DNA of 32,276 bases from Candidatus Altimarinota bacterium. GTDB lineage: Bacteria > Patescibacteriota > Gracilibacteria > BD1-5 > UBA2023. Shown here piece by piece: positions 46 to 32,276 of this stretch (within the stretch, counting starts at the first letter, position 1; each line of letters opens with the position of its first letter). Both the position numbers and the translations under genes were made by a program. The notes beneath the pieces were generated by a model, which made no database searches, was not told the origin of the DNA, and worked only from the letters and a program-made list of their open reading frames with translations. The stretch lies in the NCBI GenBank assembly GCA_947373235.1, contig CANBWW010000001.1, forward strand, positions 1-32,276, in the 5' to 3' direction.

Positions 46-3000
46 ATGCAGTTTCGTTTTTATCAAAAATATACATCTGCAATTCTTATTTTCCTCCTTT
101 TTCTTACTCAGACTGTTCAGGTCTCTTTTTTTGACCATACAGAAGCTGCTACAGAGGATTATCATGATGTGGTTTCTATCGTTGTCGATACTGACACGTA
201 CAGCGAATTGAAGTGAGATATTAAGCAATATAGTCAAGATATACAGACCTACCTCGGATCTACTCGAGTGTCTCTTTTTGTCGTTCCAAAAAATACTCCA
301 CCGGAAGCGATCGCTGCACAAAATGAAAAACTCTATTACCAGGGGGACTGAAAGGATGGGGTTTCATCTCTTGTAGGGACTATTTTGATCGGAAATGTTC
401 CGATTCCAGTTGTCGAAAAAGATGGAGAATCGTTCCCAAGTTTGTATCCATATGTGGATTTTGATGATAAACGTTTTGTGTATGATCCTCAGATAGAAAA
501 ATATACTTTTTCCAAAAATACTAATGAAACCAGTGATGTAGAGATATGGCATGGAGTTATCGATCCTGCACTCGGAAGAGCTTGGAATGGCGAAAGTGAT
601 ATCCAGAAAATAAAATGATTTCTTGCAAAAACTCATGAATTTTATCAAGGAAAATGAAAATTCACACCTTCAAATATACCTCCACGGGTATTTTATTATG
701 ATGGTTATAATGAAAGTGCAGCAATCGGTTCGAGAGAGTTATATCAGTATGCACTCTTTATAAAAAATGCAGAAAATATCGCATATGGTCGTTTTACAAA
801 ATACTTGCTTTCTGATATCAATGATGCCCTGAAACTCTATGATGCAACGAGCCCTGATAGTATAAAAACGACCGATATCCCGAATTTTTCAGAACTTCAA
901 AAAGAAAATCCTGATCTTGCGAATATATCTGGTGATACTCTCACACCAGATATGCTCAAGAACCTTTCAGATATACAGAGTCAAAATATTATCAATAGTT
1001 TTATAAAGAGATTTTATGAGATTATTAATTCCAAAACTCTTGGAGATGAACGACTCTTTGTCCATAATGCTGGTCGATACAATAATGGATCTGATGTACG
1101 GGTTGATCAAGGTTCTGTGGATGTTTCTTTGCTCGATGAGACTGCCCTCAATACTATAAAAGGTGCAAATGATGCTCTCGAAACAGCCATCAATAAAGTT
1201 ATCACTGATGCGAATTATGCTCGTAAAATCCCTATTTTTGATTCCTATCAGAACTATAAAAATACTAATGATTATGATAATACCAGAGATGCGAATAAAG
1301 TGTATCAAAATTATTTTCTCGGAACAAAAAGTACCCAGATCACCGATCCAAAACAGTGTACGATTGCAAGATGATCGACTATAAATGAGCAAAGTCAGAT
1401 GTGAAAGGGAATACTCGTAGAAGCAAATACAACTTTTGATATTAATTCTATTTCATGACAGATTGGTTACCTTTCTGGTGATACTGATGAACTCGTAAAA
1501 CTTCATAAGTCTTCGGATTATTCTTGTTTTGATCCGAACACGAGTGAACCAAAACTGAATTCTTACTGGCGGAATAATAGTTTTCTCAATTTTTCAACTT
1601 CTCCTTCGACGAATCCAACAGATATTCTTTTTGGTCCTCTGTGAACTGCGAGTTTTACTGGTATGAGTCTCCCGATTTCTTCCCTCGGAGGGATGAAAGA
1701 ATCAGACCGTGTAACTGCACCGTCTATCAATAATTGTCTAGATAATTCTTATCAATTCGCACTGCTTCAGCCATATACTTTTTCTTATGATATTGGTTAT
1801 CGGTCTCATGGATCTGATGAATCTTATAGTTGTAATTCTTCTTGGCCAGATGAATGGAATACAAGTGGGGCTTATGGTTGTCAACAAAGAAGTACAGAAA
1901 CTCCACGATTTACGTGTCTCACAGAACAGGTTCCTCTTTCACAAAGTATTTCTACAAAATTTTCTGATCGACTTCCCGATTATTCATGACAATCATGTTT
2001 TGCATGAAATCTTACACTTGATGGAAAAGTTATAAAAACAGCAAATAGTCCTTGTATATACTATGATAGAGGAGATGATAACTCTCATCAACGTGATGAT
2101 ACAGTGTATCAAAATCTTTCTTATCATACGATTCCCTCACTCCTTACGCATATTTCTCCAACGTCAGAAGAAATAGGTGCTGCAACTGCAAATTCTATCA
2201 CCCCAAACATCCCTGTGGATATGGTACGAAGTGTAGATTTTCTGACTCCAAAAGGAAATATAGCGACTTTTACGTATCCAGATTTTTTCAAAGCTCCGGG
2301 GAATACCGTTGCAGAAATGCGAACATACCTGAAGAATCTTTCAGAGAGTGAATGGAATAAAGTGATCACTACTGAAAATGGAACGAATTTGACCTCAAGT
2401 GAATCTGGTGCGAATCTTGCCTTGGGTGCAGGTATTTTGCCTTCGACTCCAATTGATTGGAATTCTCTGATTTCGGACAGTGTACTTATTCAAGTTTTGC
2501 AAGCTAAAAACTGGATGCATCCAGATGTTTCGAAAAAATATACAGATGCCCTGACGAGTGATCTTTCTTACAGTCATACTCTCTGAGGTGATGTGTCACT
2601 CGATCCTCCAAAAACTCCAGGAACTCGAGATGGATATGAGATAGCGTATCTTGGGCTCACATCTTTTCAGCCGACAGGGGAGAGTGGCTCAACTGATCAA
2701 AATACGAGTATACAGGCCTACAATCAAAAAATGGCAACGCTCCAAGGACTCAATGTTTCCGATACGGATATTTCAGATAATCCATCATCTGGGAGTGATC
2801 CATATCCAGATAGTACCGCGTGTGGTGATCCTGGATGAGTCGATATTTTTCAGTGGCCAGCAGCGGTTGCTTGTTGGATCAAGACCGTAAAACCAAAAAT
2901 TTCTTCTGGAATGTGTGGTGGAAATACTATTGGTATGGGCTTACTAAGTGTTCCAAAGGCGACTATTCCTGATGGTGTTTCGAGTGATTCTCAGGCATTG

Positions 3001-6000
3001 AAATCTTACTTTGATGCTTCTCAGCTTACTTATTCTCTTCCGAGAACGGTGATGCAAAAATCTGACTCCGTTTCTGTGAGTTTTGACTTTCAAAAAAATG
3101 GCGCTCATATCGACCTTCCAGAAAATACGAATGTAAAACTCGATATCATTTCTCTTACCGATACAGACGGAAAAAATATTTCTCTCGATAAATCGGATAA
3201 TCTTCTCCAAATTGCACCAGCAAGTCAGCCATATGGATCTGAAAAAACGACATTTCTCCTTACTTCTGGATGACAACTCTGAAGTGTAAAAATAAGATGA
3301 ACGCTGACGACTGCACTTCCAGATGGAACGACATACACAAGTTTTTCAGATGATATCGTCATAAGAATCAGCGATGAGTATCTCGATGTATCTCCGACCG
3401 TACAAGGCATAGAAGCAAGCTCCATCGATACAACCCTCCTTGATCCAGTGAAACTTTCGTTGACTGCAAAAAGCAATCAAAATAATGCCTCTATATCATC
3501 AGTACTTCCATATACACTCGATATCTATGATGATATTTCTGATGAATTACTTGCTTCAGATATTCAGATACATTCTTCCACTGACTATAGCATTCCAATT
3601 GATTATACCAAAAAAATCTGACTCTATAGATTTGAGATTCATGACCAAGCTTGAAGATTTGGGGAGGCGACTCTGGCAGTTCGTTCATGACCATTGGCAA
3701 AATCCAACTTCTTACCACTTTCAGACACGATTGTAAAAAATATTGATTCATACGGTGCGATCGATCTTCTCGATGCAAAAGATAATCTTCTTACACCAGA
3801 GCTTCATACCATCGAATTCGAAGCGCAAGGATGATATCTTGTCGATAGTGATGGAAAACATGTTCAAAAAATGTCGATACAAAGTATAGATAGTGAAATT
3901 CCCCTTGCTTTCGGTGCTGATGCTGCCTGAAAAATAAATATTTCTTATTCGATCGATGGAGTTGTGACGGCTTCTCGCCAGATCGACGTCGTTAATATAG
4001 CAAAAATAAAAATCAATCGTCGTTGAACTCCTGTGGTTGGTGGTCCGGCGGTTTCTATTTTTGCTGAAGTAGTTGATGAAAATGATCAGCTTCTTTCAGG
4101 ATTCCATTCTTCGATTTCATTTTCTCTTCCGACACTCGCGGGTTCTTTTGCTACTGGAACGGTTGCTATAGAAAATGGTAAAACAGATGATTTTTCATTT
4201 CTTCCTGGTCGTGTTGCTGGCCAACAGATGCTTTCTATATATGTTCCTGGAATCGGAACTATCCCAGATGTTCCGTTTTCTATTTCTCCCTGAGCGCCAT
4301 TTTTTATACAGTCAGCTCTCGGCGATGACTTTACGACTTTTAGTGTCGAAGACCGATATGGCAATCTTGTGCCAAAGGATTTTGTAGGAACTTTGCAGAA
4401 AGATGTTGATCCATCTCTACCGATAAACTTTACTGCGGGTATTTATAGTACACCAAGAACTCCTGGATATTTTACTGCGACCGTTCCAGAAATAGCCAAT
4501 TCGAGTATTTCATATACTGATACTGATGGAGTTCATACGATTTCTGGTATTCCAAGTACACCGATTTTTGTTCCTACACCGAAACAGAAATTTGTATTCC
4601 GTCCTGATTACAATGCACGATATACGGTTTTTGCTGGAGATAGTTTTTTAAGAGAATCAGAAAATATCCTCTATGACACAACTCCTGGAGCTTCTCAAAG
4701 TCTCGCCGCAAGTACACTTCTCACTTCACCATACCAGACAGAAAATTATTTTTCTATCTTTCCTGGAGGTGGATATAGCCTCTGAAATGCTTCGGATATA
4801 CTCATGAAGGCAAGTGCTCATCTGGAAAAAAATACATTGATTTTGGAAGCTTCTGACAGTGTGAGCCATACGCGTATTGCTCGTGTTTCCTATCCAACGA
4901 GTGGACTTCTTTCGAGTGTGTGTGAAGAAAGTTCGACAGACTCTCAAGATTGTCTGACCGTTCCTTCATGAGGAGGTATCAGATTTATTACGTATAAAGA
5001 TGGGCAATATCAGACTCAAAATGATGGAAATATCATGACGATCGCTCAGTCTGGAAATATCAAACTTCGTTATGATAGATCTGCATGACTCGTCCTCGCT
5101 GCTGGTATCACACTTTCTCCTGTTTCTGCAGATTCCAGTGCGGGACTTCTTCTTGATGTGATAGATGGAGACAAGTCGATCGGTCGTATATTTCTTGCAA
5201 CTGATCCAAAACTCTGAGTACAAAAATCAGCTGATATATTTCTTCCAGCTTCGACTCCTGTTCTTGAGTCTACTCATCCATATTTGGAAAAACCAGTCTA
5301 TTCACAGATTTTTGATTCCCAAAATGCTGGCTATAGTATCTATACCAAACCAAAAACATCGGATCTAGATGAGACGATGATCGGACCAAATTTTATAGAT
5401 TCTCTCGGTTCTATAACGGATACTGCTGGTGTCGGATGGCATGATAAAAATCGTATGATGCTTTCTTATAGCGCTGGCGATACCGTGGGTGAAGCAACCA
5501 AATGGTTTCAGACGTATACGATGGTCAATCTCTGAGATCCAGTCGCCCATGTAGACGTATGAGCGGTTGGTACAAATCAAGAAGGGATCGATCGATCGAT
5601 CGGTACGGAACTTGCTTCTGGTGCACGTGGAAATATTGTTTCTGTTGCCCATCATGATATGAACAATGATGGCTATGAAGATGTGATCATAACCTATGAT
5701 GATGGTTTTGTGGAACTCTATCTCAATCTGAATGGTCGTTTTAAAAAAAGTCAGATGATCGGATATGTACCAAATATTTCTCCTGATCAACTTTCTTTTT
5801 GAGATTTCACAGGAGATGGTTTTTCCGATATTATCGGACTCAATGATTCGGGATGACTCCTCTTCATCGATAATAGTGATAGAAAATTTGTCCAAAAACC
5901 AATTTCTCTCGATGATTCCTCCGCTTCCATTCCAGATCATATCACTCAGTATAAGATCTACGATATGGACGGAGATAAAAAGGAAGATATTGTTTATCTG

Positions 6001-9000
6001 ACTGAAGCTTGAGAACTCTGAGTTCTTTATGGAACACAGACGGCATGAGTTTTTTCGAAACATATAGCGGACTCGAGTTTATGAGTTTCACTTTCACCTG
6101 ATGCAGAAACTGGATGAGGAGTTTTTCATGCAAATACAGTACCAAACACTGTTCCACAGAGTACCGATCCAGAAAATGATACGAGCCTCATTCAGGCAGA
6201 TGTCTACTATCATCGAACACTTCCGAGTCCTTCGAGTGATTCGACAGTGACCTATTCACAAAATGATTCAATCGATACTATTACCAATCTTTCTCCATCA
6301 AGTCCACAAAATGCGACTACTTCCAATTTTGTGTATTCAGAATATGCACCTGCTTTTGGTCTCGATATACAAAAAACATATAACAATATTTCTGCTGCAA
6401 AACTCCATGCAGGGGATCTTATACAAGTGGATATCGCACTGAAAAATACAACCACGAGTACACTGTCACAGATAGAATATCTAGATACGATTCCCAAGAT
6501 TTTTGATCCGAAAGATACAAAAAAATATCAACTCATTATCGATAATGAAGCAACAGAGAAAAACTTTGTTCCACTCACGAGTGGTGATTTTGATGCTGAC
6601 TTTATAGGAATGGATATTCCTGCAGGAAAAACCCTCCATATCCGATATACTCTGAAGGCACTTCCTACGACTTATGGAGAGATGCAGGTGGGAAATCTCC
6701 AAAAATGACAAGTATGAGAAGATGGATATTGAGATATTTGATTCAATGCTTCTACGACCTGCGGAACGAGTATGATGCTTTGGAAATCTACGTCTGGACG
6801 TACTTTTTCGAAGGGAAGTGCTGATTTTTCTCAGCCGATAGTTCCTACGAGTATCCAAAATCAGATCGATCAAACCAATGGTGAAATCGCGGGTGCCCAG
6901 CATCTTTCGAGTACGAGTTCTACACTCTGAGCATTGACGAGTGACTACAATAATATGTCTGAATCAAATGGTTCTGTATCGGCCCCGTTTCAGGCAAATG
7001 TACAACAAAGTGGTCAAAATTATGTAGCATCACTCGATCCAAGTCCTGCATTTACTCAAAAAGTAACGACCATGGCTCAAAATATTGCAGATTGACTTTC
7101 TTGTGGATTTGGTGGGGGGTCATGCATGTCTTTTCCTATGAACTGGGCACCACTCGCACCAGGAAGTGATCCGGTTCTTTTTGGGAAACCTGTCGGAGAT
7201 GGTCTCAAAGTAGGCGAGGGTATTCCTCTTTTTAGTGGATTAACCGGATATCCTTTGCAAGTTGGTCCTGTCTGTGTCCCGATTCCAGTCGTGTGGCCTG
7301 CATCACCTTTGGCATGGCCAGCCCAAACATGCCCAACTTCAAACTATGAAGCTGGATGGGCAGAAGTCGGGTCGATCTTGGCATCAGGATGACATCAGCC
7401 AGCTTCACCACTTTTAGGTGCCGGTTGAATGTTCGGTATATCGAGTCCAACTAATTTTCTCAGAATTTTTGTAAGCCCAACACTGACCCTTGGAGTTTGA
7501 ACTGCTATCTGTATGGGTCCAGCAAATATATGATGACAATTTCCACCGAAATGACTTTCACCATTTATTCCATGAGGAAACTGTATCGTTCTGGCAAAGC
7601 CGATGAATGTCTGTAAGGGTGATGGTTCAAGTGCTGATGGAGATGTTCAAGGGGTTTCATGACTGTGAAGCGTGACAGATGCATGGAATGCAGGAAGTTG
7701 TAGTATAAAAGCAGATACTTCTACGGATATCGCAACCACCAATAAACAAACAACACAAGATATTATCTCCTATTTACAAAACCCAGATACCAAGAAAGTA
7801 AATGATATCTATGCTTCTCTGGCAAAGAGAGGTCCTCGAAATCTCTCTTCAGGATGACCACTTCTGAGTATGGGTGATAATAGTTCCTGAACGAAGATCG
7901 ATGTAGATATCGATACGACGAAACCCTTCGATATGCATAATATCGTGAAGGTCAATAATACTCGTATTCCAGGTTTTCCTGATTTTATTATGGATTGGGT
8001 CGCACGTCAGACGGATGAGATTACGAATAAGCTCATGACTCCACCGAATATTGTCGTTATTCCGCCAAGAAATTTTAGTCAATATGGAACTTCGGATAAG
8101 AGTTTTTCAAATTTTTCTGATGCATTTAGTCAAAAAGCATATGTCGATGCGTATGCGAATTTCCAACAAAAACTCTGACAAGCGGGAAATACTGATGTTG
8201 CTTCCAAGCTCACAAATATGACCACTTCTCATAGTGATCTTTCTGCTGGGTATGAGAAGGCACTGGATGGATTTATCCAAAATCATGCTTCTGCCTTAAA
8301 TAGTGCAAAAGGTGGAGTAAATCAAGCAAATGCGGTCTTCCAATTTCTTGGTCAACTTCCATTTCTGAAGGTACAAAAAACGCAAGTCGCGATCAATGTT
8401 CCGTGGATTCTTCCCCAAGAACTCGATCGATATGCTCGTACTTTATCTCAATATTCAGCTGAACTTGATAGAACTGAAAAGCAGTGGTGTGCAGGAAAAA
8501 CTGCTGCCCAATGTACCGATATTCATGCGAATGCCAATGTTTCTGCACTGCGTACAAGTATCCAGAAAAATTTGGCGATGATCGAGACGTATAAACATTT
8601 CCCTGATAAACTCCAAAAATATCTCACTTGGAAACAACGATACATTGCTGAAATCATGTGTAACGTGAACGCTTTCGAACAGATGATCGGAGGATGGTAC
8701 AACGATAACGGTATCCGATTTCGTAAATGGGCCGAGTTCTATGTGCTCGTCAAGACAGTGATGGAAAGTTGGCAACCAGTGATTGATATATTCAAAAAAT
8801 GAGATGCTCAGTGTTCTGTCTGTCGAAATGAACGATGAGATCTAAAATACTATAAGATCAAACTTATCAGTATACTTATACCGACCCTTCCGATTATCCA
8901 ATTTCCGAGATGGCCAGATATTGTCCTCGATCTTTCTGATATTCGTATGTGACTCACGATCGCCGTACCAGAATTTAACTTTCGTATCAATCCGATCCGT

Positions 9001-12000
9001 CTTCCAAATCTTCCGCTCTTAAATCTTCCTGCACTTCCATCGATTGGTCTTTCATTGCCACCACTCCCGATCCTTCCAGCGATTCCAAATCTCCCAGATT
9101 TACCAGATCTTCCATCATTTCCTCGTGTACAACTTCCATCGCTTCCACCACCACCAAAACTTCCAAAAATATTTGGTTCTCTTTCAGCATCTCTCTGACT
9201 CCTACAACTTTTCCAGAAAATCCGTTGCTATATGGAGAAAACGATTCTCGTCCCAGAGTGGCAAGCTGGATCAGTGATCGCTGATAGAACAGAACGACAG
9301 GGGACATTGAATCTCGATTTTCTCAAAGTACAACTTCCACAGTATGCTGTACCAACTATCCGAGAAATCCGAGTTTCTACACATATTGACTTCGAAAAGA
9401 GGACAGATTTTATTACTGAATTCGCACAAAAAGCGGTGAAACCAATAAACTCATTTAGTGCGGATATACAGGGAAGTGTCCAAAGTTCTCTTGATAAAGC
9501 TGGGCAAGATGTCCAAAATGTTGGAGCTGGAATACAAAATGGAATCGATAATGCAACGAAGGATCTCAAAAATATAAATCTCAAAGTCGATGCCAATGGA
9601 AAAGTCATCCAATCTTCACTCGATGAATCGAATGAGGATTTTGATCAAAAGACTTTTTCAGGGTTGATCGCTTCACTCACATCTGAGAAAGATACACTTC
9701 TGGATACAGATGATTTTACAGATGATTTATTGAAAGAAATGCAACATGCTTGAGAAGATACCACCGTTTTGAAAAATTCTCTTCAAAAATCTAAAATAGA
9801 AAGTGACGAGATAACGAAGTGAATGGAGAAAAATTTCCATGAAAATATGCAGCTTTTCTATAAATATCTCAATGCGGAAACAGCTGATACGAAGGAACAA
9901 GAAAAAATGATCGAACGACTCAAGTGAGATATCCCAACACCACTCGTAGATGCCGATTTACCACGTGCGCATTTTGTTTCTGATGAAAGTAGTCTTTCTG
10001 ACGGAGCTCTTGATGATTATAATTCAGCTATTTTAAAAAATCAGAATACAGCTCAGATTTCTGTCTCATCAGGTAATTCGAATATTCAGGCTACAGAACA
10101 TCTTCAGTGAAAATTGGGTCGCCTTCTCGCTGCCAATACTCTCTCTACGCCCACAACAACCCCATCTGATACGAGCTATGCCCCTTTGTATACAGGTATT
10201 TATGTACTTACACCGAGCGGAGTTCAGACAAAATTATTTGATTATACAGATATTCTTGATCCAGCTGAGAAGCCACAAGTTTTTGATTTTGATAAAGATG
10301 GTGACGCTGATTACCTCTATATTCTTGGATGAGTTGTCTATGTAAAATATTCTTCCTTACATACACCAAAGAAAACTATTGATACCGATATAAGTTTTAG
10401 TGATCTCGATATTTCTGCTCGTCCACAGGCTCCAAATTTCTTTGATGAAACAATCTCAAGTCCAGGGAATATACAACTCTCTTTCACTCCTGCTGACGAG
10501 AGAGATCGTGATTTTCGCCTCGAATTTTTCGATCGATATACTCAATGGGATCTTGCTACTCTCAATGAATGAAAGCCAGATCTGAATGCACCAAAATCAA
10601 CGGTTGATTTTTTTGTAGAAGATCCCGGTGATACACAAAAATCCGATGGATTAGAAGTGACAGCGATTCCTGAAGTTCTCCAATCAGTCGATCATCCAAG
10701 TGGATTTATCCTCCAAGGTATGAGTGGTGTTCCGCTGAAATCTGGTACCAACTTCACACTCACCGCTGGAAGACCAATCTATACTGGAAATACTGCAGTC
10801 CGTTTGACTTATACTCTCAGTTCAGGTGTTTCTCAGTCTCTCGATATGAAAAAATATCAAAAATATGTCTTTACAGGAGATATTTCTGCTTCGATCGTTT
10901 CAGGAAAAGCATATATTTTAACACAAAGTAGCTCTGATCGTTTGGTGTATTCTGATGATTTTATCGGTATGCCGATCCTTCCAGGTACACATATCATCAA
11001 CACGGACTGATGATTTACTCTCTATAATCCAAGTCTTGATCGTTCAACGGATATTTCTACAAACGAAGAATACAGAAGTGTGTGACTCTGAGTACCTGAT
11101 GAAAGTTACCAAGTAAACTTTCCATACATGAATGGTTTGTATAGTGGAAAACTCACCGCACTTTCTCCAAGAAATCATGATCCTGTCTCTGCAGGAGTGA
11201 CACTCTTAGCACCGCTCGCTGCTCTTGATAACAGTGCTCCAGTTGTCGATATCGCTTCAAAAATCCAGATTCCGGTATATGGAAAAATGGATTTTGATTT
11301 GAAAGATATTATTTCTGATATGAGTCCGACTCATGTTTCTATTGATCCTGATACGACCGTCGATGAAGATAAGAACTGAGTGTATGATGATGATTTTGTA
11401 AGTGCATGAACTGGTGTTAAAATCAATTCAGGTAGTATTGTCTTTGGTCCTTTCGATAATCTTGGAATACATATGATGAATCTGAATGCAGTCGATGCCT
11501 ATGGAAACCAAAATCTCGTTCCTTTAGAGGTTGATGTATTTGCTCCGATTCCACAGATTAAAAATATCGATACGAATGGTATCATTCATTGATTGATTGA
11601 TCCGATTACTACACTGGAACCGATTCATTTTTTCAGAATTCGTACCGGAAGTCCATTGAAACAATTATTTCCTTCGAGTACTCTTACAAAAAATGATGGA
11701 ACTTTCGAGACAGGAAGCGTGTTTATTGGAAGCGGTGTAGATCTCACTTTTGGTGGAACTTCTCATATATTGGACCAAAATTCCTGACTTCCATCGACTG
11801 GAGATAATCTCAAATTCACTGTTGCATCCGCGACAAAAGATCATCCAATGATTTTTACTATTCATGATTCATCTGGAACTTCTATCCTTGATCAGACGAT
11901 TTCTCTTCCCGAAAATACTCGATTCATGCTCAATCCAACAACGACTGATATACCAAAAGTTCCAAGTGTCGTGATCAATTCTTCTCAAGGATATCTTTCA

Positions 12001-12237
12001 CAATCAGCAAATCTTCTCGATAAGAATATTCCATGAGGTGTCTATATCACCGATAATTCCTACAATCCTATTGCCACGATTGCACAAGATGGACAGATAT
12101 ATGCAATTGTTTCTTGAGTAACTCTTTCCGCAAAAAAATATGGTGAATTTCTTTCGACCAGTATTCTTTTGAACTGAAAAGAAATCACAAATGTGAAATA
12201 TCTGGTGAATTTCTTTTATACTGTCAATAATCACTAA
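46..12237 (+). CDS. Giant secreted/surface multidomain protein (4063 aa when TGA=Gly); likely adhesin or host-interaction protein, overall function unknown
   Basis: Frame +1 has no TAA/TAG from position 1 to the TAA at 12235-12237 but carries about 74 in-frame TGA (manual codon scan). All 20 track ORFs from 385..618 to 11848..12036 lie in this one frame. The ATG at 46 is followed by a signal-peptide-like MQFRFYQKYTSAILIFLLFLTQTVQVSFF. Recognisable pieces: FG-GAP/VCBS-like Ca-binding repeats (DMNNDGYEDVII, GDFTGDGFSDII, YDMDGDKKEDIVY at ~5560-6060; FDFDKDGDADYLY at ~10280-10320), Ig-like (Big-type) segments at ~4030-4400, a DUF11/CARDB-like segment at ~6390-6700, and a Leu-Pro repeat at 8992-9165. 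The frame is open to the left edge, so an upstream start cannot be excluded. Confidence 0.85.
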
Positions 12238-12305: not shown

Positions 12306-12353
12306 CAGCAGACGTATTCGAGTTTTTGTTCTTTACTTGCCATCCTTTTCACT

Positions 12354-13886
12354 ATGTTTCCACGTGTTACTATCGTCGGTCGTCCAAATGTCGGAAAATC
12401 TAGTATTTTCAATGCTATGTCTGGTCATCGTATCGCCATTGTTTCTGATATCGAGAATACTACTCGTGATCTTATAGAGTACAAAATTACTGATACAGAA
12501 CGGGATATTTCGTATATTTTGGTTGATTCTGGAGGTATTGTTGAGGCGGATAATGAAACACTTCTTGCTGATGTTCGTGGTCGTGTAGATGACGCGATCG
12601 AGTCTTCGGATATTATCCTTTTTGTTCTGGATTATGATCGAGTGACGGAGTTCGATGATCATATCGCTCGCAAACTCAGAAAATCTGGAAAAAAAGTAAT
12701 CGTCGTTGCAAACAAAGCTGACAATCCAAAAAGAGCCATGGAAGCCTACGAGCTTATGAGTCTTGGTCTTGGTATCGTTGTACCAGTGAGTGCTATGCAA
12801 TCTCGTGGCTTTATCGAACTTCAAGATGCGATCGTCGCAGAGCTTCGTACTCTCGATCTTGCTGTTCCAGCCGATATTGCTGGAGAGAATCCTGATATGT
12901 TGAAATTGGCGATCATTGGTCGTCCAAATGTCGGAAAATCTTCTCTGGTAAATGCGATCTCTGGAGAGATACGTACGATCGTGAAGGATATGCCCGGAAC
13001 GACTCGTGATGCAATCGATACGATTATTTCTCATAATAATGAGGATATCTGTCTGATCGATACAGCAGGTATACGCCGTGCCGGGAAGATCGGATCTGCA
13101 AATATAGAACAGTGGAGCGTGATGCGAGCAGAAAGATCCATCGAACGAGCTGATGTGGTGGCAGTCGTGATGGATGCATTCGAAGGAGTTGCCCATCAGG
13201 ATGAGCATATCGTCGGTGAAGCTAAAAAAGAAAAGAAGGGAATTATCCTCGTGTTAAATAAATGGGATAAAGTCCTAGCAAAGCCAGACGTTGATAAAGA
13301 TACTATTCTTGAACGATATATGCACTATCTTTCGAAGAAGTTTGATTTTCTTTCATATGCTCCCGTCGTCTTTACTTCTGCGATCGAAGGTCGTCGTATT
13401 GATCTCATCCTCGATCATGCACAAAGTATCCAAAAAGAACGCAATAAACGTGTAAAAACATGAGTATTTAACAAGTTTCTTGATCAGATTACCTATGATC
13501 ATGCACCAAGTGGAAACCGAAAATCTCATAAGCCAAAAGTGTATTACGGTTCTCAGGTTGATGTGAATCCTCCTCGCTTTGTGATTTCTGTGAACAACTC
13601 CGATCATTTCCACTTCTCCTATGTCCGCTATATAGAGAATAAGATTCGCGAAGTTTTCGGATTCGAAGGAACTCCGATCGATATAGAAATGCGTTCACGC
13701 AAGAGTATCTATAAGAATAAAGATAAAGATATCATGAAGGTCGAGTCTGGAAAAGAAGAAGGAGATGAGAAATATGAACACAATATGGAAATGGTCGAAA
13801 AACGGAAGGAAGATACCAAGAAAAATATGAACAAAAAGAAGTTTAATAATTATGCGAAACGAGATGACAAAAGAAAACGTAATTAA
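12354..13886 (+). CDS. der: GTPase Der/EngA (double GTP-binding domain plus KH-like domain) with a Lys/Glu-rich C-terminal tail
   Basis: Two GRPNVGKS P-loops (MFPRVTIVGRPNVGKSS and KLAIIGRPNVGKSS), DSGG/DTAG and NKAD/NKWD motifs. Track ORFs 12354..13463 and 13539..13886 are in one frame, joined through TGA at 13461-13463 (KRVKT-G-VFNKFLDQI...PKVYYGSQVDVNPPRFVISVN..FEGTPIDIEMRSRK). Stop is TAA. Confidence 0.95.
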
Positions 13887-14880
13887 AATCCAATCTTCAG
13901 GGTCATCATTTCTTTCAAGAAGATTTTTGATCATTTCTGCAATTTTGACAGGAGTATGATTTTTCCTACAGTACTTCACTTCAGGATTTTTGAGCCTTCT
14001 GGTAGCATTTTTCCAGATCACTCTTTTATCCATTTTTGTTGTGAGTTTTCGATTTCTTTTTTCTCGAAAAATACCGTTTCGATTCCTGTTTTTTCGTTCT
14101 GCACTGTTGTTTGGAAGTATTGCTTGATTTTTTTCTGCACTGATCCTCCTCTTTTCTTTCTATCAAAATAGTTTTCCAGGAGCAGTTTCAAAAATCACAC
14201 TTTCTGATGGTGATCGTACGATTGTTTTTATACAGATGTCGCATATTGCCATACCTGATTTCTATGAAAAAATCCATACGGATCTTCTGAGTTTGAGTCA
14301 TTCTTGATATCTCATATATGCCGAATGAGTCCGTCCAGGAAATGAAGAAAATACTCAGAAATTCCAAAATCTTCTCGGAATTAAGCTTACAGAAAATACC
14401 TATACCAAAATAGCCGATACCATCGGTATGCAATCACAAGGGAAAGAAATTTTTTCATGAATTTCAACGGGAAGTATTAAGAATGTAGATATTTCTATAG
14501 ACGATATCATGAAAATGGTATGAACTGGGTCTATTCGTCCACAAAATCCTCCACTCGATATTGAAACCGAACTTGAGGCTCTTCCTGATGGAAAAATTCC
14601 TCCACTTTCTCAGTACATTATCCGTGCAGTTTTGAATATGATGATCAAAACTAATGCTGATACGGATACATTTCTTGGAAATATGATCGACCCAAATCTT
14701 TTTGAAACGATTCTTGGAAAAAGAAATCAATATATCACAGATACGTTTCTCCACTCAGATGATAAAAACGTTGTATTTTTGTATGGATCGCTCCATTTCT
14801 CTGGTATTTATAGCATCTTACAGGCAGAGAATCCAAATTGGAAGATCATCTCTATAGCACCATATTATCCATATAAATAA
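13864..14880 (+). CDS. Membrane-anchored protein, possibly Tiki/TraB/GumN superfamily (338 aa)
   Basis: Frame +1 is open from 13687 to the TAA at 14878-14880, with 6 in-frame TGA. About three N-terminal hydrophobic helices (FLIISAILTGVGFFLQYF, GFLSLLVAFFQITLLSIFVV, ALLFGSIAGFFSALILLFSF). The soluble domain has TraB/GumN-like landmarks: IVFIQMSHIA, YAEGV, FLYGSLHFSG. Start is ATG 13864 (alternative ATG 13852) and overlaps the der 3' end. The family assignment is weak. Confidence 0.6.
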
Positions 14881-14917
14881 AACAAGATATTGTACACCTT
14901 TTTCCGAAGAAACTGTT

Positions 14918-14945
14918 TTGATTTTCCCATTCCTTTTCATATAAT
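14918..14945 (+). promoter_or_regulatory. Sigma70-like promoter candidate for ftsH
   Basis: TTGATT (14918-14923), 16-nt spacer, TATAAT (14940-14945), about 50 nt upstream of the ftsH ATG. Confidence 0.4.
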
Positions 14946-14997
14946 TCACCGGTTACTTTTAAAAAAGTAATGATTCATTATTTAAAAATCCCTTCTC

Positions 14998-16977
<1,980 letters not shown>

Positions 16978-29711: not shown

Positions 29712-31610
29712 ATGAAACAGACTCCTGAAAACATCCAAAATATCCTTACCAATCTCCCTCTTACACCCGGAGTATATCAGATGAAAGATGCTTCCGGAAA
29801 GGTCATCTACGTCGGAAAAGCAAAGAACCTCAGAAGTCGAGTGAAGTCGTATTTTGATCGAACGGTGGATCTGAGTGCTGCGAAAAAACAAATGGTTGAG
29901 AAAATCAGAGATATCGAAACGATCCTCTGTCAAACCGAAGTCGAAGCACTCGTTCTCGAAACCAATCTTATCAAACACCTCACACCGAAATACAATATCC
30001 TCATGAAGGATGATAAAAATCTCGCGTATATAAAAATCACTCCATGACCTATTGCGATGGTACAAAAAACCAGACAGAGAATTCCTGACGGAGGAGAATA
30101 TTATGGTCCGTATGTGAGTGCTGTCGAACAATGTGTACGATATCTCAGAAAGGTTTTTCGTGTGCGAAATTGTCGGGTACGTTTTGGAAGAGCTGATGGA
30201 AATTTTTTTGTATCCGATAAAGCAGGGAAAACGATTCCATGTATGGATTATTATATAGGACTCTGTCCTGCTCCGTGTCTTCTGACCCCAGATGCTCTTT
30301 CGAAACATGAGCAAAATATTTTGTCGCTCAAAAATTTCCTCGACGGAAATACGACTCAAGTTTTCTCTGATCTCGATAGAAAAATGCGGGAACATGCGAA
30401 AAGCCTCGAGTTTGAAGATGCGGCAAATATAAAAACACTTATCGAATCTCTGAAAGTCCTTTCTGAAAGACAATCGGTACGAGATATTGCGACGGAAAGC
30501 ACAGATATTATCGTTTATTATGCGAAATATGATCGTCAGTTTATTGGTCTCACGATGATCCGACGTGGACAGATTGTCGGTGTATTTCGTCATGAAGCCC
30601 AGGCGAAGATCGATTTCACTGAGAGTGAAGTGATCGAACACTTCATCGCAGAACAATATCGTGATGAGAGTGATATTCCGAGTGTATTATTATTACAAAA
30701 GGAAAATGATGATTCTGTACTCTCTGCATTTCTCGAAGAAAAACGAGTTTCTCTGGAAGTTCCAAAAATAGGAAAGAAAAAAGAGTTGGTGGATTTTACA
30801 TTGAATCAAGTTCGTGAATATGCTTATAAGCTCGAACTTTCGAAGTTGGAAAACCGTATTTTGACTCGTGAACATATGGTGCACGTTCTGGAAAAAATCG
30901 GGTATTCAGTACCAAAAAAATGAGAAATCATCTTTGAGTGTTACGATATCTCTCATACGGATGGAAACTTTACGTATGCTTCTCGAGTGGTGATCGTAAA
31001 TGGAAAAGCAGATCCAAGTCGATATAAAAAATATAAGATCCAATCACTTCCAGAATGAAAAATAGATGACTTTGCATCTCATAGGGAAGTTATGATCAGG
31101 CGTACCCTTGAGGGTATAGAGATGAACAATTTTCCACATCTCATTATCATTGATGGATGAAAATGACAACTTTCTTCCGCACTCTCAGGAATAAAAGAAT
31201 GAATTTGGAAGTATCAAAATGATGTATCAAGATTATCATCCTGAGAGAGTCTGCCTATTTTATCTTCAGATATTCCACTCTGTTCCATTGCAAAAAGAGA
31301 AGAAGAGATATTTCTCCCATGAAAATCGGTTCCAGTCCTTTTCGAACATGGAACTCCTGAGCTTATGGTTCTTCAGAAAGCTCGTGATGAATCACATCGT
31401 TTCTCGATCACGGCCAATAGATCCGCTCGAACAAAAGCAATGAAAAAAAATATCCTCGAAGAACTTCCTGGTATCGGTCCAGTGACTCGCAAAAAACTTC
31501 TCAAACTCGCCGGATCTGTCGATGATATTCGAAATATTTCTCTCGCTGATCTAGAAAAGATATGTTCTGCGAGACAAATAGAAGCTCTCAAAGATCATGG
31601 AATTTATTAG
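29712..31610 (+). CDS. uvrC: Excinuclease ABC subunit C, UvrC (632 aa)
   Basis: GIY-YIG N-terminus (PGVYQMKDASGKVIYVGKAKNLRSRVKSYF), UvrBC-like region, endonuclease domain ECYDISHTDGNFTYASRVV, IIIDG-G-K-G-QLSSAL (TGA at 31158-60 and 31164-66 at the conserved DGGKGQ glycines), LQKARDESHRFSI, and C-terminal (HhH)2 LEELPGIGPVTRKKLL. Track ORFs 29712, 30057 and 31365 share one frame. Stop is TAG at 31608-31610. Confidence 0.95.
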
Positions 31611-32194
31611 GATTTTCTGTGTGCTAATCCTGATAAAAGGATTATCGTGAGAAATATGAGAAGTGCCATTCCTGGAATTGTCAGAAATCAAAATACAAAA
31701 ACTCAGTTATTATCGGTACATGCAGGAAGGAGTCCTCAAACCGTACAAGGAAGCTCGACGATCCTTCAGAGAACCCATCATTGGAAGTGATAATAGTAAT
31801 GATATCCAGCAAAAAATGACCCAAAAAGTGCAAGTATGAGTATGATAATATGATTTTTCCGAATTCCATAAAAAAGTGATATCAAAACGATCACGTCTAT
31901 CGGAAACATGAAAATCCTCTGCCACCAACAGAGTATACAAACTTCGAGCTCATAATAGAACTGATAAGTAAGGACTCATACGGTTGAACCTATTGCCAAA
32001 AAACCAATTATTCGCATACAATTTTCGTATGATAGAAATCTATCAATATGTTTTCTTGTTTTTCCTCCGAAAAGGATACCTATAGTGAGGATAAATGTGA
32101 GTAGAAAAACAGTAATACTTCCGATTCCTAAAATGATAGAGTATGTGTGGAGATTCATATTATGAGTTATAAATATTATGATGTTGTGCATCAT
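31607..32194 (-). CDS. dsbB: DsbB/BdbC-family disulfide bond formation protein (start uncertain: 195 aa from 32194, 136 aa from ATG 32017)
   Basis: Track ORF 31976..32194 continues through TGA: ...YYELEVCILCWWQRIFMFP (the CxxC-x2-QR signature of DsbB, CxxC at 31928-31939), further TM segments, and a second Cys pair PCTVGGLLPAC. Stop is TAA at 31607-31609. An extra hydrophobic N-terminal segment is present only if the start is at 32194 or 32158. Confidence 0.75.
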
Positions 32195-32276
32195 AATTCT
32201 TTCTTTGTAAAAAACAATTTTTTCACGAAATAATATTTTTCTATATAATCCTGATATGTATATTTTGGCCTTCGAA

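What the first reader, a model, noticed from the sequence alone, without database searches (positions are those of the whole stretch)
7090..7670. Compositionally distinct Gly/Pro/Trp/Cys-rich module of unknown type in the giant protein
About 190 aa stand out from the AT-rich, Asp/Ser/Thr-rich remainder: GLSCGFGGGSCMSFPMNWAPLAPGSDPVLFGKPVGDG...VCVPIPVVWPASPLAWPAQTCPTSNYEAGWAEVG...GMFGISSPTNFLRIFVSPTLTLGVGTAICMGP...GNCIVLAKPMNVCKGDG. Locally the DNA is visibly more GC-rich, there are 8 or more cysteines and several hydrophobic stretches, and TGA-Gly codons are dense. I cannot match it to a known domain. It could be a membrane- or wall-inserting element, or a disulfide-knotted core. It is followed by a conserved-looking alpha-helical region (7930-8800) and a CxxC element (QCSVCRNE).
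Basis: seen in the sequence. Interest (0 to 1): 0.6.

Follow-up and report, generated by a model that had tools for sequence, protein, structure and literature searches.

The report
Orphan disulfide-braced domain in giant protein
The odd Gly/Pro/Trp/Cys-rich patch is a real, strongly conserved, almost charge-free protein domain with no known relatives. It sits at the heart of a 4,000-residue cell-surface protein carried by most sampled Gracilibacteria, Absconditabacteria and Peregrinibacteria genomes, including a known predatory species, and its function is still unproven.

Summary
Under code 25 (TGA=Gly) the window encodes one 4063-aa protein (46-12237). Residues ~2349-2555 are its compositional extreme: G+P+W+C is 63 per 168 aa against 23.9±6.1 elsewhere, and it has the gene's fewest charged residues.

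- **Composition, not foreign DNA.** The GC bump comes from amino-acid content. GC3 is 0.28 in the module and 0.27 in the rest.
- **Conserved, not low complexity.** The first half is the best-conserved 50 aa of the protein. Its skeleton recurs upstream of the same ~600-aa downstream core in Gracilibacteria, Peregrinibacteria and Absconditabacteria. This includes the 4153-aa Vampirococcus lugosii protein.
- **Widespread.** The core is found in 139 of 201 genomes of the class.
- **No known relatives.** Pfam, NCBIfam and PDB sequences give no match. AlphaFold2 predicts a confident beta-rich fold, and Foldseek finds no neighbour for it.
- **Disulfides.** Cysteine counts in the core are even in 55 of 55 orthologues, while the flanks are mixed.

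My reading is an extracytoplasmic, disulfide-braced, nearly uncharged domain that forms a hydrophobic hub of the conserved core. A membrane-contacting role is possible. A transmembrane anchor is unlikely.

The parts
46..12237 (+). Giant gene, 4063 aa, read with TGA=Gly (74 in-frame TGA). N-terminal signal or anchor at aa 11-29.
5614..5835 (+). FG-GAP/VCBS repeats (aa 1857-1930), the only Pfam-recognisable part. They lie upstream of the module, as in all relatives.
7090..7710 (+). The module (aa 2349-2555): Gly/Pro/Trp/Cys-rich with few charged residues (8% over the whole module; about 5% in its conserved part, aa 2353-2520). It has 8 Cys, and 6 of them are invariant in Gracilibacteria-type orthologues.
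7093..7245 (+). Sub-block A (aa 2350-2400): gLxCGFGgGsC-x3-P-x-N-W-A-P-L-A-P-G ... G-x-P-x-F-S-x-L-T. This is the most conserved 50 aa of the whole protein (0.68 mean identity). C2353, C2360 and P2364 are invariant or nearly so across all lineages.
7246..7413 (+). Variable linker or insert (aa 2401-2456). Alignment occupancy is 0.59, and it carries 0, 2 or 4 Cys in different orthologues. In this genome it includes a lineage-restricted helix (aa ~2431-2446).
7414..7611 (+). Sub-block B (aa 2457-2522): NF-x-R-x-[FY]-V-[TS]-P-T-L-T-x-G-x-G-x-A-x-C-x-G-P (a beta-hairpin) followed by GGNCIVxAKP (a strand). R2473, C2489 and C2513 are invariant in 100 of 100 sequences. Invariant small residues alternate with variable hydrophobic ones.
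7612..7701 (+). Loop from C2523 to C2552 containing the acidic DGSxxDGD motif. It is specific to Gracilibacteria-type proteins and has low AF2 confidence. The ends are the 5th and 6th invariant Cys.
7963..8145 (+). R-I-x-x-FPDFxMDWxxRQxEE motif and helix (aa 2640-2700). It always follows the module.
8323..9435 (+). Downstream conserved core ('core2', aa 2760-3130). It holds long helices, the invariant CxxCxNER (nt 8812-8832), a FPxWPDIxLDL long beta-hairpin, a position-specifically conserved LPxLP proline array (9001-9168) and an amphipathic helix carrying invariant C3061.
31607..32275 (-). DsbB-family gene (runs off the window end), giving this genome an extracytoplasmic disulfide-forming capacity.

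Best explanation
The segment encodes a genuine, autonomous protein domain. It is about 90 aa in its minimal form and about 200 aa here because of lineage-specific inserts. It lies outside the cytoplasm as part of a giant envelope protein and opens that protein's ~800-aa conserved core.

The domain is a small beta-rich fold: two hairpins plus one strand. It is held together by disulfide bonds and is almost free of charged residues.

Its most conserved element is a hairpin in which invariant small residues (T, T, G, G, A, C, G) alternate with interchangeable hydrophobic ones. Both faces of that hairpin are therefore buried.

I infer that the domain works as a rigid hydrophobic hub or docking surface. 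Most likely it packs against the rest of the conserved core or against copies of itself in an assembly. It is less likely to be a variable host-recognition part.

Shown here: reality, conservation, orphan status, extracytoplasmic context, paired cysteines, predicted fold. Inferred: the specific disulfide pairs and the hub or assembly role.
For: - Conservation. 34 orthologues share 36-56% identity over the module. The module holds the protein's conservation peak.
- Same position everywhere. The order module, then FPDF motif, then core2 is found in 487 cluster representatives and in three lineages.
- Invariant residues. C2353, C2360, R2473, C2489, C2513 and C2552 are invariant in 100 of 100 sequences.
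- Cysteine parity. Core counts are even in 55 of 55 full-length orthologues and in all 29 distinct Cys patterns. The module has 6, 8 or 10 Cys and the linker 0, 2 or 4. The flanks of the same proteins are mixed, 36:19 and 39:16.
- Extracytoplasmic context. There is an N-terminal signal or anchor. Neighbouring domains are FG-GAP, DUF11, Ig-like, SLH and TSP3. The window carries DsbB, and VKOR is in 27 of 41 genomes of the order.
- Predicted fold. AF2 gives pTM 0.69 for the module, with residues 51-140 at pLDDT 87-95. The same strands appear in the module-only and whole-core models.
- Conserved character. Charged residues are 4-5% against 23% in whole giant proteins. G+P is about 30% against 11%. 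This holds in both the Gracilibacteria and Peregrinibacteria types.
- Hairpin pattern. The alternation of invariant small and variable hydrophobic residues is seen column by column.
Against: - No experiment exists, and no model coordinates were available. Cys-Cys distances and surface hydrophobicity could not be measured.
- The whole-core model has pTM 0.47, so no confident packing of the module against the core is shown.
- The CGFGGGSC motif, one of the best-conserved pieces, is predicted with low confidence (pLDDT below 50).
- Peregrinibacteria- and Absconditabacteria-type modules have odd Cys counts (5 or 7). In those lineages the module is not a closed disulfide unit.
- Some genomes that have the protein show neither DsbB nor VKOR with the Pfam models.
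- A domain this uncharged is also what a lipid-contacting element would look like.
Confidence: 0.6

Rival explanations
1. Membrane-contacting element. The disulfide-stabilised, Gly/Trp/Pro-rich loops and uncharged hairpins dip into a lipid bilayer, either the cell's own or, more interestingly, the prey's. This would be analogous to viral class II fusion loops or to the amphipathic hairpins of beta-pore-forming toxins. It would help these epibiotic or predatory bacteria attach to or breach host cells.
For: - Only 4-5% charged residues and positive hydropathy, conserved across lineages.
- Conserved aromatic and hydrophobic loop motif N-[WFY]-A-[PF]-L-A-P-G.
- A hairpin with alternating small and hydrophobic residues and a single invariant Arg at its start.
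- The family is present in Vampirococcus lugosii, which attaches to its host and consumes its cytoplasmic content (PMC8080830).
- The element is conserved across lineages with presumably different hosts, as expected for a universal target such as lipid.
Against: - Foldseek finds no similarity to any fusion protein or pore-former in the PDB or BFVD.
- The predicted strands are 7-13 residues long, and the conserved hairpin has 7-8 per strand, which is short for spanning a bilayer.
- AF2 sees a compact domain, not an extended stem.
- No lipid-binding evidence exists.
Confidence: 0.25
2. The conserved cysteines bind a metal (for example zinc) or act as redox or catalytic thiols and do not form structural disulfides.
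For: - Invariant cysteines, including a downstream CxxC.
- Odd Cys counts in the module of Peregrinibacteria- and Absconditabacteria-type proteins.
- Some genomes lack a detectable DsbB or VKOR.
Against: - Cysteines are gained and lost strictly in pairs in Gracilibacteria-type proteins: 0, 2 or 4 in the linker and 4, 6 or 8 downstream, always even. Metal sites do not predict this.
- No His, Asp or Glu co-ligands are conserved in the module. R2473 is its only invariant charged residue.
- In Peregrinibacteria-type proteins the whole protein is even in 56 of 67. This suggests the odd module Cys pairs with an upstream Cys.
Confidence: 0.07
3. A transmembrane or wall-spanning anchor segment of the giant protein.
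For: Hydrophobic stretches at aa 2406-2424 and 2471-2489 are among the most hydrophobic windows of the protein.
Against: - The best Kyte-Doolittle 19-aa score is 1.52, below the usual 1.6.
- The stretches are interrupted by conserved Pro, Thr and Gly.
- They are predicted as short beta-strands at pLDDT above 90.
- A membrane crossing would place half of a protein made of extracellular-type, disulfide-paired domains in the cytoplasm.
- Relatives anchor through SLH domains.
Confidence: 0.03
4. A lineage-specific low-complexity insert, a compositional artefact, or horizontally acquired DNA.
For: Biased composition and a local GC peak.
Against: - It is the conservation peak of the protein, with position-specific invariant residues across three lineages.
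- GC3 equals that of the rest of the gene.
- Only aa 2401-2456 behave as a variable insert.
Confidence: 0.01

Closest known systems
VAMP_16_20, the longest protein of Candidatus Vampirococcus lugosii (Absconditabacteria). The paper lists it at 4163 aa; the NCBI record is a 4153-aa 'FG-GAP repeat domain-containing protein' (P0290).
   Same: A true homologue. It has the module at aa 2568-2739 (E=1e-23 to the module profile), followed by the FPDF motif and core2. BLASTP of window aa 2345-3148 against its 2568-3289 gives E=1.5e-54. The authors predicted it to be a membrane or surface protein.
   Different: Only about 26% identical. Its module has 7 Cys with a rewired N-terminal pair. The paper lists it merely as 'hypothetical protein' and does not describe the module. 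That P0290 and VAMP_16_20 are the same gene is inferred from size and organism only.
Giant 'VCBS/FG-GAP repeat-containing' and 'S-layer homology domain-containing' proteins of Candidatus Gracilibacteria and Peregrinibacteria, as named in GenBank
   Same: The same family, 2,400-6,100 aa. Architecture is collinear: Ig-like, then FG-GAP, then DUF11, then module, then core.
   Different: The names refer only to the recognisable repeats, so the module and core are unannotated. Peregrinibacteria-type modules are minimal (about 90 aa, 5 Cys) and lack the inserts seen here. Many of those proteins carry SLH wall anchors, which this protein lacks.
Fungal hydrophobins (analogy only, from general knowledge)
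   Same: Small beta-core domains of roughly 100 aa with eight cysteines in four disulfides, very few charges and a large hydrophobic surface.
   Different: No sequence or Foldseek similarity. The Cys spacing differs and there is no conserved pair of CC doublets. This module is embedded in a 4,000-aa bacterial protein and is not a secreted monomer.
Fusion loops of class II viral fusion proteins, such as flavivirus E (analogy only, from general knowledge)
   Same: Gly/Trp/Cys-rich, disulfide-stabilised, uncharged loops at a conserved position of a large surface protein.
   Different: No fold match to any viral protein in BFVD or the PDB. No evidence of membrane insertion.

Membership tests
Any Pfam-A or NCBIfam family | Significant profile match over the module | tested here: not met
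   The whole protein hits only FG-GAP_3 at aa 1857-1930, plus a sub-cut-off propeller hit in the same region. NCBIfam gives none. A per-member scan of 100 module sequences at E<=0.1 found no family in more than 2 members.
Any protein of solved structure | Sequence or profile match to a PDB chain, or a Foldseek match of the AF2 model | tested here: not met
   phmmer and two profile searches gave a best E of 0.14. Foldseek against the PDB gave a best E of 1.4 for the core and 2.9 for the module, with TM below 0.2. Against BFVD the best E was 0.2. AlphaFold DB was not available.
Unnamed giant envelope-protein family of Gracilibacteria, Absconditabacteria and Peregrinibacteria | Collinear module A, module B, FPDF motif and core2 inside a protein of 2,400-6,100 aa | tested here: met
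   All four profile blocks occur in order in the window protein and in nearly all full-length relatives.
Unnamed giant envelope-protein family of Gracilibacteria, Absconditabacteria and Peregrinibacteria | Invariant module residues C2353, C2360, R2473, C2489, C2513 and C2552 | tested here: met
   All are present in the window sequence and invariant in 100 of 100 aligned sequences. Absconditabacteria-type sequences, which were not in that alignment, relocate the second Cys.
Transmembrane helix or membrane anchor | A run of about 19 or more residues with Kyte-Doolittle mean of at least 1.6 and no helix breakers | tested here: not met
   The maximum is 1.52 at aa 2471-2489. That stretch contains invariant P2478, T2479, T2481 and G2485 and is predicted as a beta-hairpin.
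Disulfide-bonded extracytoplasmic domain (a general class) | Export signal, cysteines conserved and varying in pairs, and an oxidative folding enzyme in the genome | tested here: met
   N-terminal hydrophobic signal or anchor. Even Cys counts in 55 of 55 cores. DsbB in the window. The actual disulfide bonds cannot be tested with these tools.
Hydrophobin | Eight-Cys pattern C-CC-C-C-CC-C and the hydrophobin beta-barrel fold | tested here: not met
   The Cys spacing differs and Foldseek finds no hydrophobin hit.
Sortase LPXTG sorting signal (considered because of the TPTLTGG string) | A C-terminal LPXTG followed by a hydrophobic segment and a charged tail | tested here: not met
   The motif reads P-T-L-T-x-G, which has one residue too many. 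It is internal, 1,580 aa from the C-terminus, and lies in a predicted hairpin turn.

The most novel reading that the evidence does not exclude
The module and the ~600-aa core that follows it form a conserved membrane-active device. Its disulfide-stapled hydrophobic loops and hairpins would engage the prey cell's membrane. In this way Gracilibacteria and Absconditabacteria such as Vampirococcus would open or fuse with their host's envelope to extract its contents. It would be a bacterial counterpart of viral fusion loops, built on a new fold.
Probability: 0.15. Interest if true: 0.9.

Novelty: new variant of a known kind. Interest (0 to 1): 0.55.

Why it matters
Gracilibacteria, Absconditabacteria and Peregrinibacteria are ultrasmall, host-dependent bacteria. 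How they attach to and feed on other cells is unknown. Their largest gene is single-copy in the window's own genome and present in most genomes of the class. It keeps one ~800-aa stretch nearly constant while the rest drifts, and the module studied here opens that stretch.

Showing that the module is a real, disulfide-braced, uncharged domain with no detectable relatives has three uses:
- It defines a concrete target for structural and biochemical work.
- It gives annotators a new domain family, with motifs and invariant residues, for hundreds of 'hypothetical' giant proteins.
- It links the family to Vampirococcus lugosii, a predator whose attachment to its host has been observed by microscopy, where localisation at the predator-prey contact could be tested.

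The giant surface protein itself is a known kind of thing and was noted in the literature. The domain and the core are not described in any paper I could find.

Tried and rejected
Searches that found nothing:
- Pfam and NCBIfam scans of the whole protein, and of all 100 module sequences one by one.
- PDB sequence and profile searches.
- Foldseek of the whole-core model against the PDB and BFVD, and of the module-only model against the PDB. This also gave no support to a fusogen-like or hydrophobin-like fold.

Ideas tested and rejected:
- Horizontal transfer or compositional foreignness, rejected by equal GC3.
- Special TGA enrichment, rejected.
- A dedicated partner system. The only conserved neighbours are housekeeping genes (der, a TraB/GumN-like gene, ftsH) in about 24 of the 65 loci with downstream ORFs.
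- DsbB co-occurrence, rejected. VKOR fills part of the gap.
- An intein-like 'N-C' junction at GGNC, considered and dropped because the Asn is not conserved outside Gracilibacteria-type proteins.
- A sortase motif, rejected (see the membership test).

Things that could not be done:
- A paralogue search in the own genome found a single copy.
- One Pfam call failed on a length limit and one on a total-residue limit.
- Model coordinates are not exposed, so Cys-Cys distances and surface properties could not be computed.
Full report
**What is there.** The window is readable only with genetic code 25 (TGA=Gly). Under it, a single frame runs from 46 to 12237 and encodes 4063 aa with 74 in-frame TGA. 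Under code 11 the same stretch breaks into fragments.

The finding's coordinates (7090-7670) correspond to residues 2349-2542. GC peaks there at 0.47-0.48, the highest value in the gene. G+P+W+C reaches 39 of 100 residues, against 6-27 in all other 100-aa windows sampled outside the module. In 168-aa windows the module is the protein's global maximum for G+P+W+C (63, against 23.9±6.1 elsewhere). It is also essentially the global minimum for charged residues.

- Seven cysteines lie inside the stated coordinates. The eighth, C2552 (nt 7699-7701), is invariant and lies just beyond, so the module really ends near 7710.
- GC3 is the same inside and outside the module (0.28 vs 0.27), while GC2 jumps from 0.406 to 0.575. 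The GC bump is a by-product of Gly, Pro, Ala, Cys and Trp codons and is not foreign DNA.
- TGA accounts for 27% of Gly codons in the module and 24% gene-wide. The TGA 'density' simply reflects the abundance of glycine. TGA positions align with conserved Gly in other genomes. At G2485, 93 of 100 sequences have Gly, which supports the code assignment.

**It is conserved, not low complexity.**
- A search restricted to residues 2340-2560 found 34 giant proteins (2,400-4,400 aa), those with source names labelled Gracilibacteria, at 36-56% identity over the whole module.
- In a full-length alignment, residues 2351-2400 are the single best-conserved 50-aa block of the protein (0.68 mean identity to the query). 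Residues 2451-2550 score about 0.5. Residues 2401-2450 are a variable insert with 0.59 occupancy.
- An exhaustive phmmer search with residues 2331-2985 found 487 cluster representatives at E<=1e-3, of which 369 were at E<=1e-10. Most of the full-length ones are 2,000-5,860 aa long.
- Block-wise profiles show the same order everywhere: module A, module B, an FPDFxMDWxxRQxEE motif, then a ~370-aa 'core2'.

In distant members the module shrinks to about 90 aa but keeps a skeleton. In order, that skeleton is:
- C-x(3-6)-C-[LIM]-x-[LIM]-P-x-N-[WFY]-A-[PF]-L-A-P-G
- G-x-P-[IV]-F
- W-P-P-S-P
- F-R-x-[YF]-x-[ST]-P-T-L-T-x-G-x-G-x-A-x-C-x-G-P
- G-x-C-[IF]-x-A-x-P
- a final C

In a 100-sequence alignment spanning the Gracilibacteria and Peregrinibacteria types, C2353, C2360, R2473, C2489, C2513 and C2552 are invariant. 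P2364, N2366, A2368, P2372, G2373, G2392, P2394, P2478, T2479, T2481 and G2485 are at 90% or more.

**Who has it.**
- The distant members are Peregrinibacteria-type proteins of 4,000-6,100 aa. Many carry S-layer-homology domains, with the order Ig-like or invasin domains, then FG-GAP, then DUF11, then module and core.
- A scan of species-representative genomes found 218 relatives. The 80 best are labelled Gracilibacteria, Peribacteria, Patescibacteria group, or in a few cases only 'bacterium'.
- The window's own genome (881 kb, 86% complete) has one copy.
- Across the class, 139 of 201 genomes and 104 of 144 genera match the core profile. This includes all 22 sampled genomes of the window's own order, counting the window's genome.
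- A second TGA-recoded lineage, where only the downstream core had matched, also has the module once a broader profile is used (E down to 1e-25). That lineage is Absconditabacteria. The 4153-aa 'FG-GAP repeat domain-containing protein' of Candidatus Vampirococcus lugosii carries the module at aa 2568-2739 (E=1e-23). Its module and core align to window residues 2345-3148 with E=1.5e-54, by far the best-conserved stretch between the two proteins.
- The Vampirococcus paper lists its longest protein, VAMP_16_20 (4163 aa), only as 'hypothetical protein'. It proposes that such giant membrane proteins form the fibrous surface used to attach to prey (PMC8080830). That VAMP_16_20 and the NCBI record are the same gene is my inference.

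**No known relatives.** Pfam and NCBIfam recognise only the FG-GAP repeats upstream. Scanning all 100 module sequences individually against Pfam at E<=0.1 gave no family in more than two members. PDB sequence and profile searches found nothing. Full-text literature searches found giant proteins of these phyla mentioned as uncharacterised, and no description of this domain.

**Predicted structure.**
- AlphaFold2 on the 796-aa core with a 66-sequence alignment gave mean pLDDT 71.8 and pTM 0.47. The module part (model residues ~25-180) scored pLDDT 83-92.
- The module alone, with a 100-sequence alignment, gave pTM 0.69, with residues 51-140 at pLDDT 87-95.
- Both runs give the same elements. There is a hairpin at aa 2394-2406 and 2409-2417. 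There is a helix in the lineage-specific insert (aa 2431-2446). The invariant R-x-F-V-S-P-T-L-T / G-V-G-T-A-I-C hairpin lies at aa 2472-2478 and 2483-2490. The C-I-V-L-A-K-P strand lies at aa 2513-2519.
- The CGFGGGSC motif and the C2523-C2552 loop are low-confidence.
- Foldseek found no neighbour. Against the PDB the best E was 1.4 for the core and 2.9 for the module, with TM below 0.2. Against BFVD the best E was 0.2, from generic tape-measure helices. AlphaFold DB was not available.

**Disulfides.**
- In 66 Gracilibacteria-type sequences the module always has 6, 8 or 10 Cys. The variable linker has 0, 2 or 4, and the rest of the core has 4, 6 or 8.
- In 55 full-length orthologues the core count is even in 55 of 55. 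All 29 distinct Cys-column patterns are even. The N- and C-terminal remainders of the same proteins are mixed, 36:19 and 39:16. Cysteines gained and lost in pairs are the signature of disulfide bonding.
- The context is extracytoplasmic. There is an N-terminal hydrophobic signal or anchor. The flanking domains are of extracellular type. DsbB is in the window and VKOR is in 27 of 41 genomes of the order.
- DsbB itself does not co-vary with the protein. It is in 39 of 201 genomes of the class, and a few genomes show neither enzyme.
- In Peregrinibacteria-type proteins the module count is odd in 67 of 67. The part upstream of the module is odd in 49 of 67, and the whole protein is even in 56 of 67. 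This suggests that in those lineages one module cysteine bonds to an upstream domain. The Gracilibacteria-type module has acquired its own sixth partner.

**What it probably does.**
- The module's character is itself conserved. Charged residues are 4-5% against 23% in whole giant proteins. G+P is about 30% against 11%. Hydropathy is positive, against -0.35.
- In the central hairpin, invariant small residues (T2479, T2481, G2483, G2485, A2487, C2489, G2491) alternate with freely interchanging hydrophobic ones. Neither face is solvent-like.
- No stretch reaches TM hydropathy. The best 19-aa window scores 1.52 and is interrupted by invariant Pro, Thr and Gly.
- The parts of host-interaction proteins that bind variable receptors usually evolve fast. 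This is the slowest-evolving part.

My best reading (confidence 0.6) is that the module is a rigid, disulfide-braced hydrophobic hub of the conserved core, buried against core2 or in an oligomeric assembly.

The main rival (0.25) is that the same properties serve peripheral contact with a lipid bilayer, perhaps the prey's. I could neither support nor exclude this rival. A metal or redox role for the cysteines (0.07), a TM or wall-spanning anchor (0.03) and a low-complexity or foreign insert (0.01) are unlikely, for the reasons given in their own entries.

**Context.** No dedicated partner genes travel with the giant gene. The only recurrent neighbours are der, a TraB/GumN-like gene and ftsH, in about 24 of the 65 loci with downstream ORFs.

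Earlier notes of this scan on orthologous modules in other genomes reach similar conclusions. I read them only after my own conservation, structure and parity analyses, and I treat them as agreement, not as evidence.

**Verdict.** This is a real, native, strongly conserved orphan domain. The kind of thing (a giant surface protein with a cysteine-stabilised extracellular domain) is known. The domain family, and apparently the fold, are undescribed, and the function is open.

Noticed in passing
window 9001-9168 (aa 2986-3041): The LPxLP proline array is not a variable spacer. It is the second most conserved stretch of the protein (0.57-0.58 identity), with many individually invariant Pro and Leu positions across lineages. 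This implies a specific structural or binding role.
   Followed up: partly
window 8659-8823 and 9226-9228 (C2872, C2923, C2926, C3061): Four more cysteines downstream of the module are invariant or nearly so, including CxxCxNER. An optional extra pair (C2815 and C2823) is present in 41% of orthologues. Counts there are always even as well.
   Followed up: partly
window 46-1100 (aa 1-350): The N-terminal ~350 aa of the giant protein is also well conserved family-wide, with invariant P121, P135, D138, F139, W168, H169 and K195. It matches no Pfam family.
   Followed up: no
Peregrinibacteria-type relatives (P0185-P0275): The module has an odd number of Cys in 67 of 67 proteins. The upstream part is odd in 49 of 67 and the whole protein is even in 56 of 67. 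This suggests an inter-domain disulfide that the Gracilibacteria-type module has replaced with an internal one.
   Followed up: partly
G133, G175, G182 and G154 versus G000, G161 and G109 (same family): Close relatives differ greatly in TGA use within the same 2.3-kb core. Some genomes have 0-2 in-frame TGA while this genome and others have 15-17. Use of TGA as a glycine codon therefore varies sharply within one family.
   Followed up: no
window 12354-16977, and loci L001, L005 and others: The gene order giant gene, der GTPase, TraB/GumN-like gene, ftsH is conserved in about 24 of the 65 loci that have downstream ORFs.
   Followed up: partly
window 31607-32275 and genome-wide: This genome has DsbB but no detectable VKOR. 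Most relatives in the order have VKOR, some have both, and a few show neither with the Pfam models.
   Followed up: partly
window 12333-13208 (minus strand): A 291-aa ORF is open under both codes and lies antisense to the der GTPase gene. It is probably a spurious shadow ORF.
   Followed up: no
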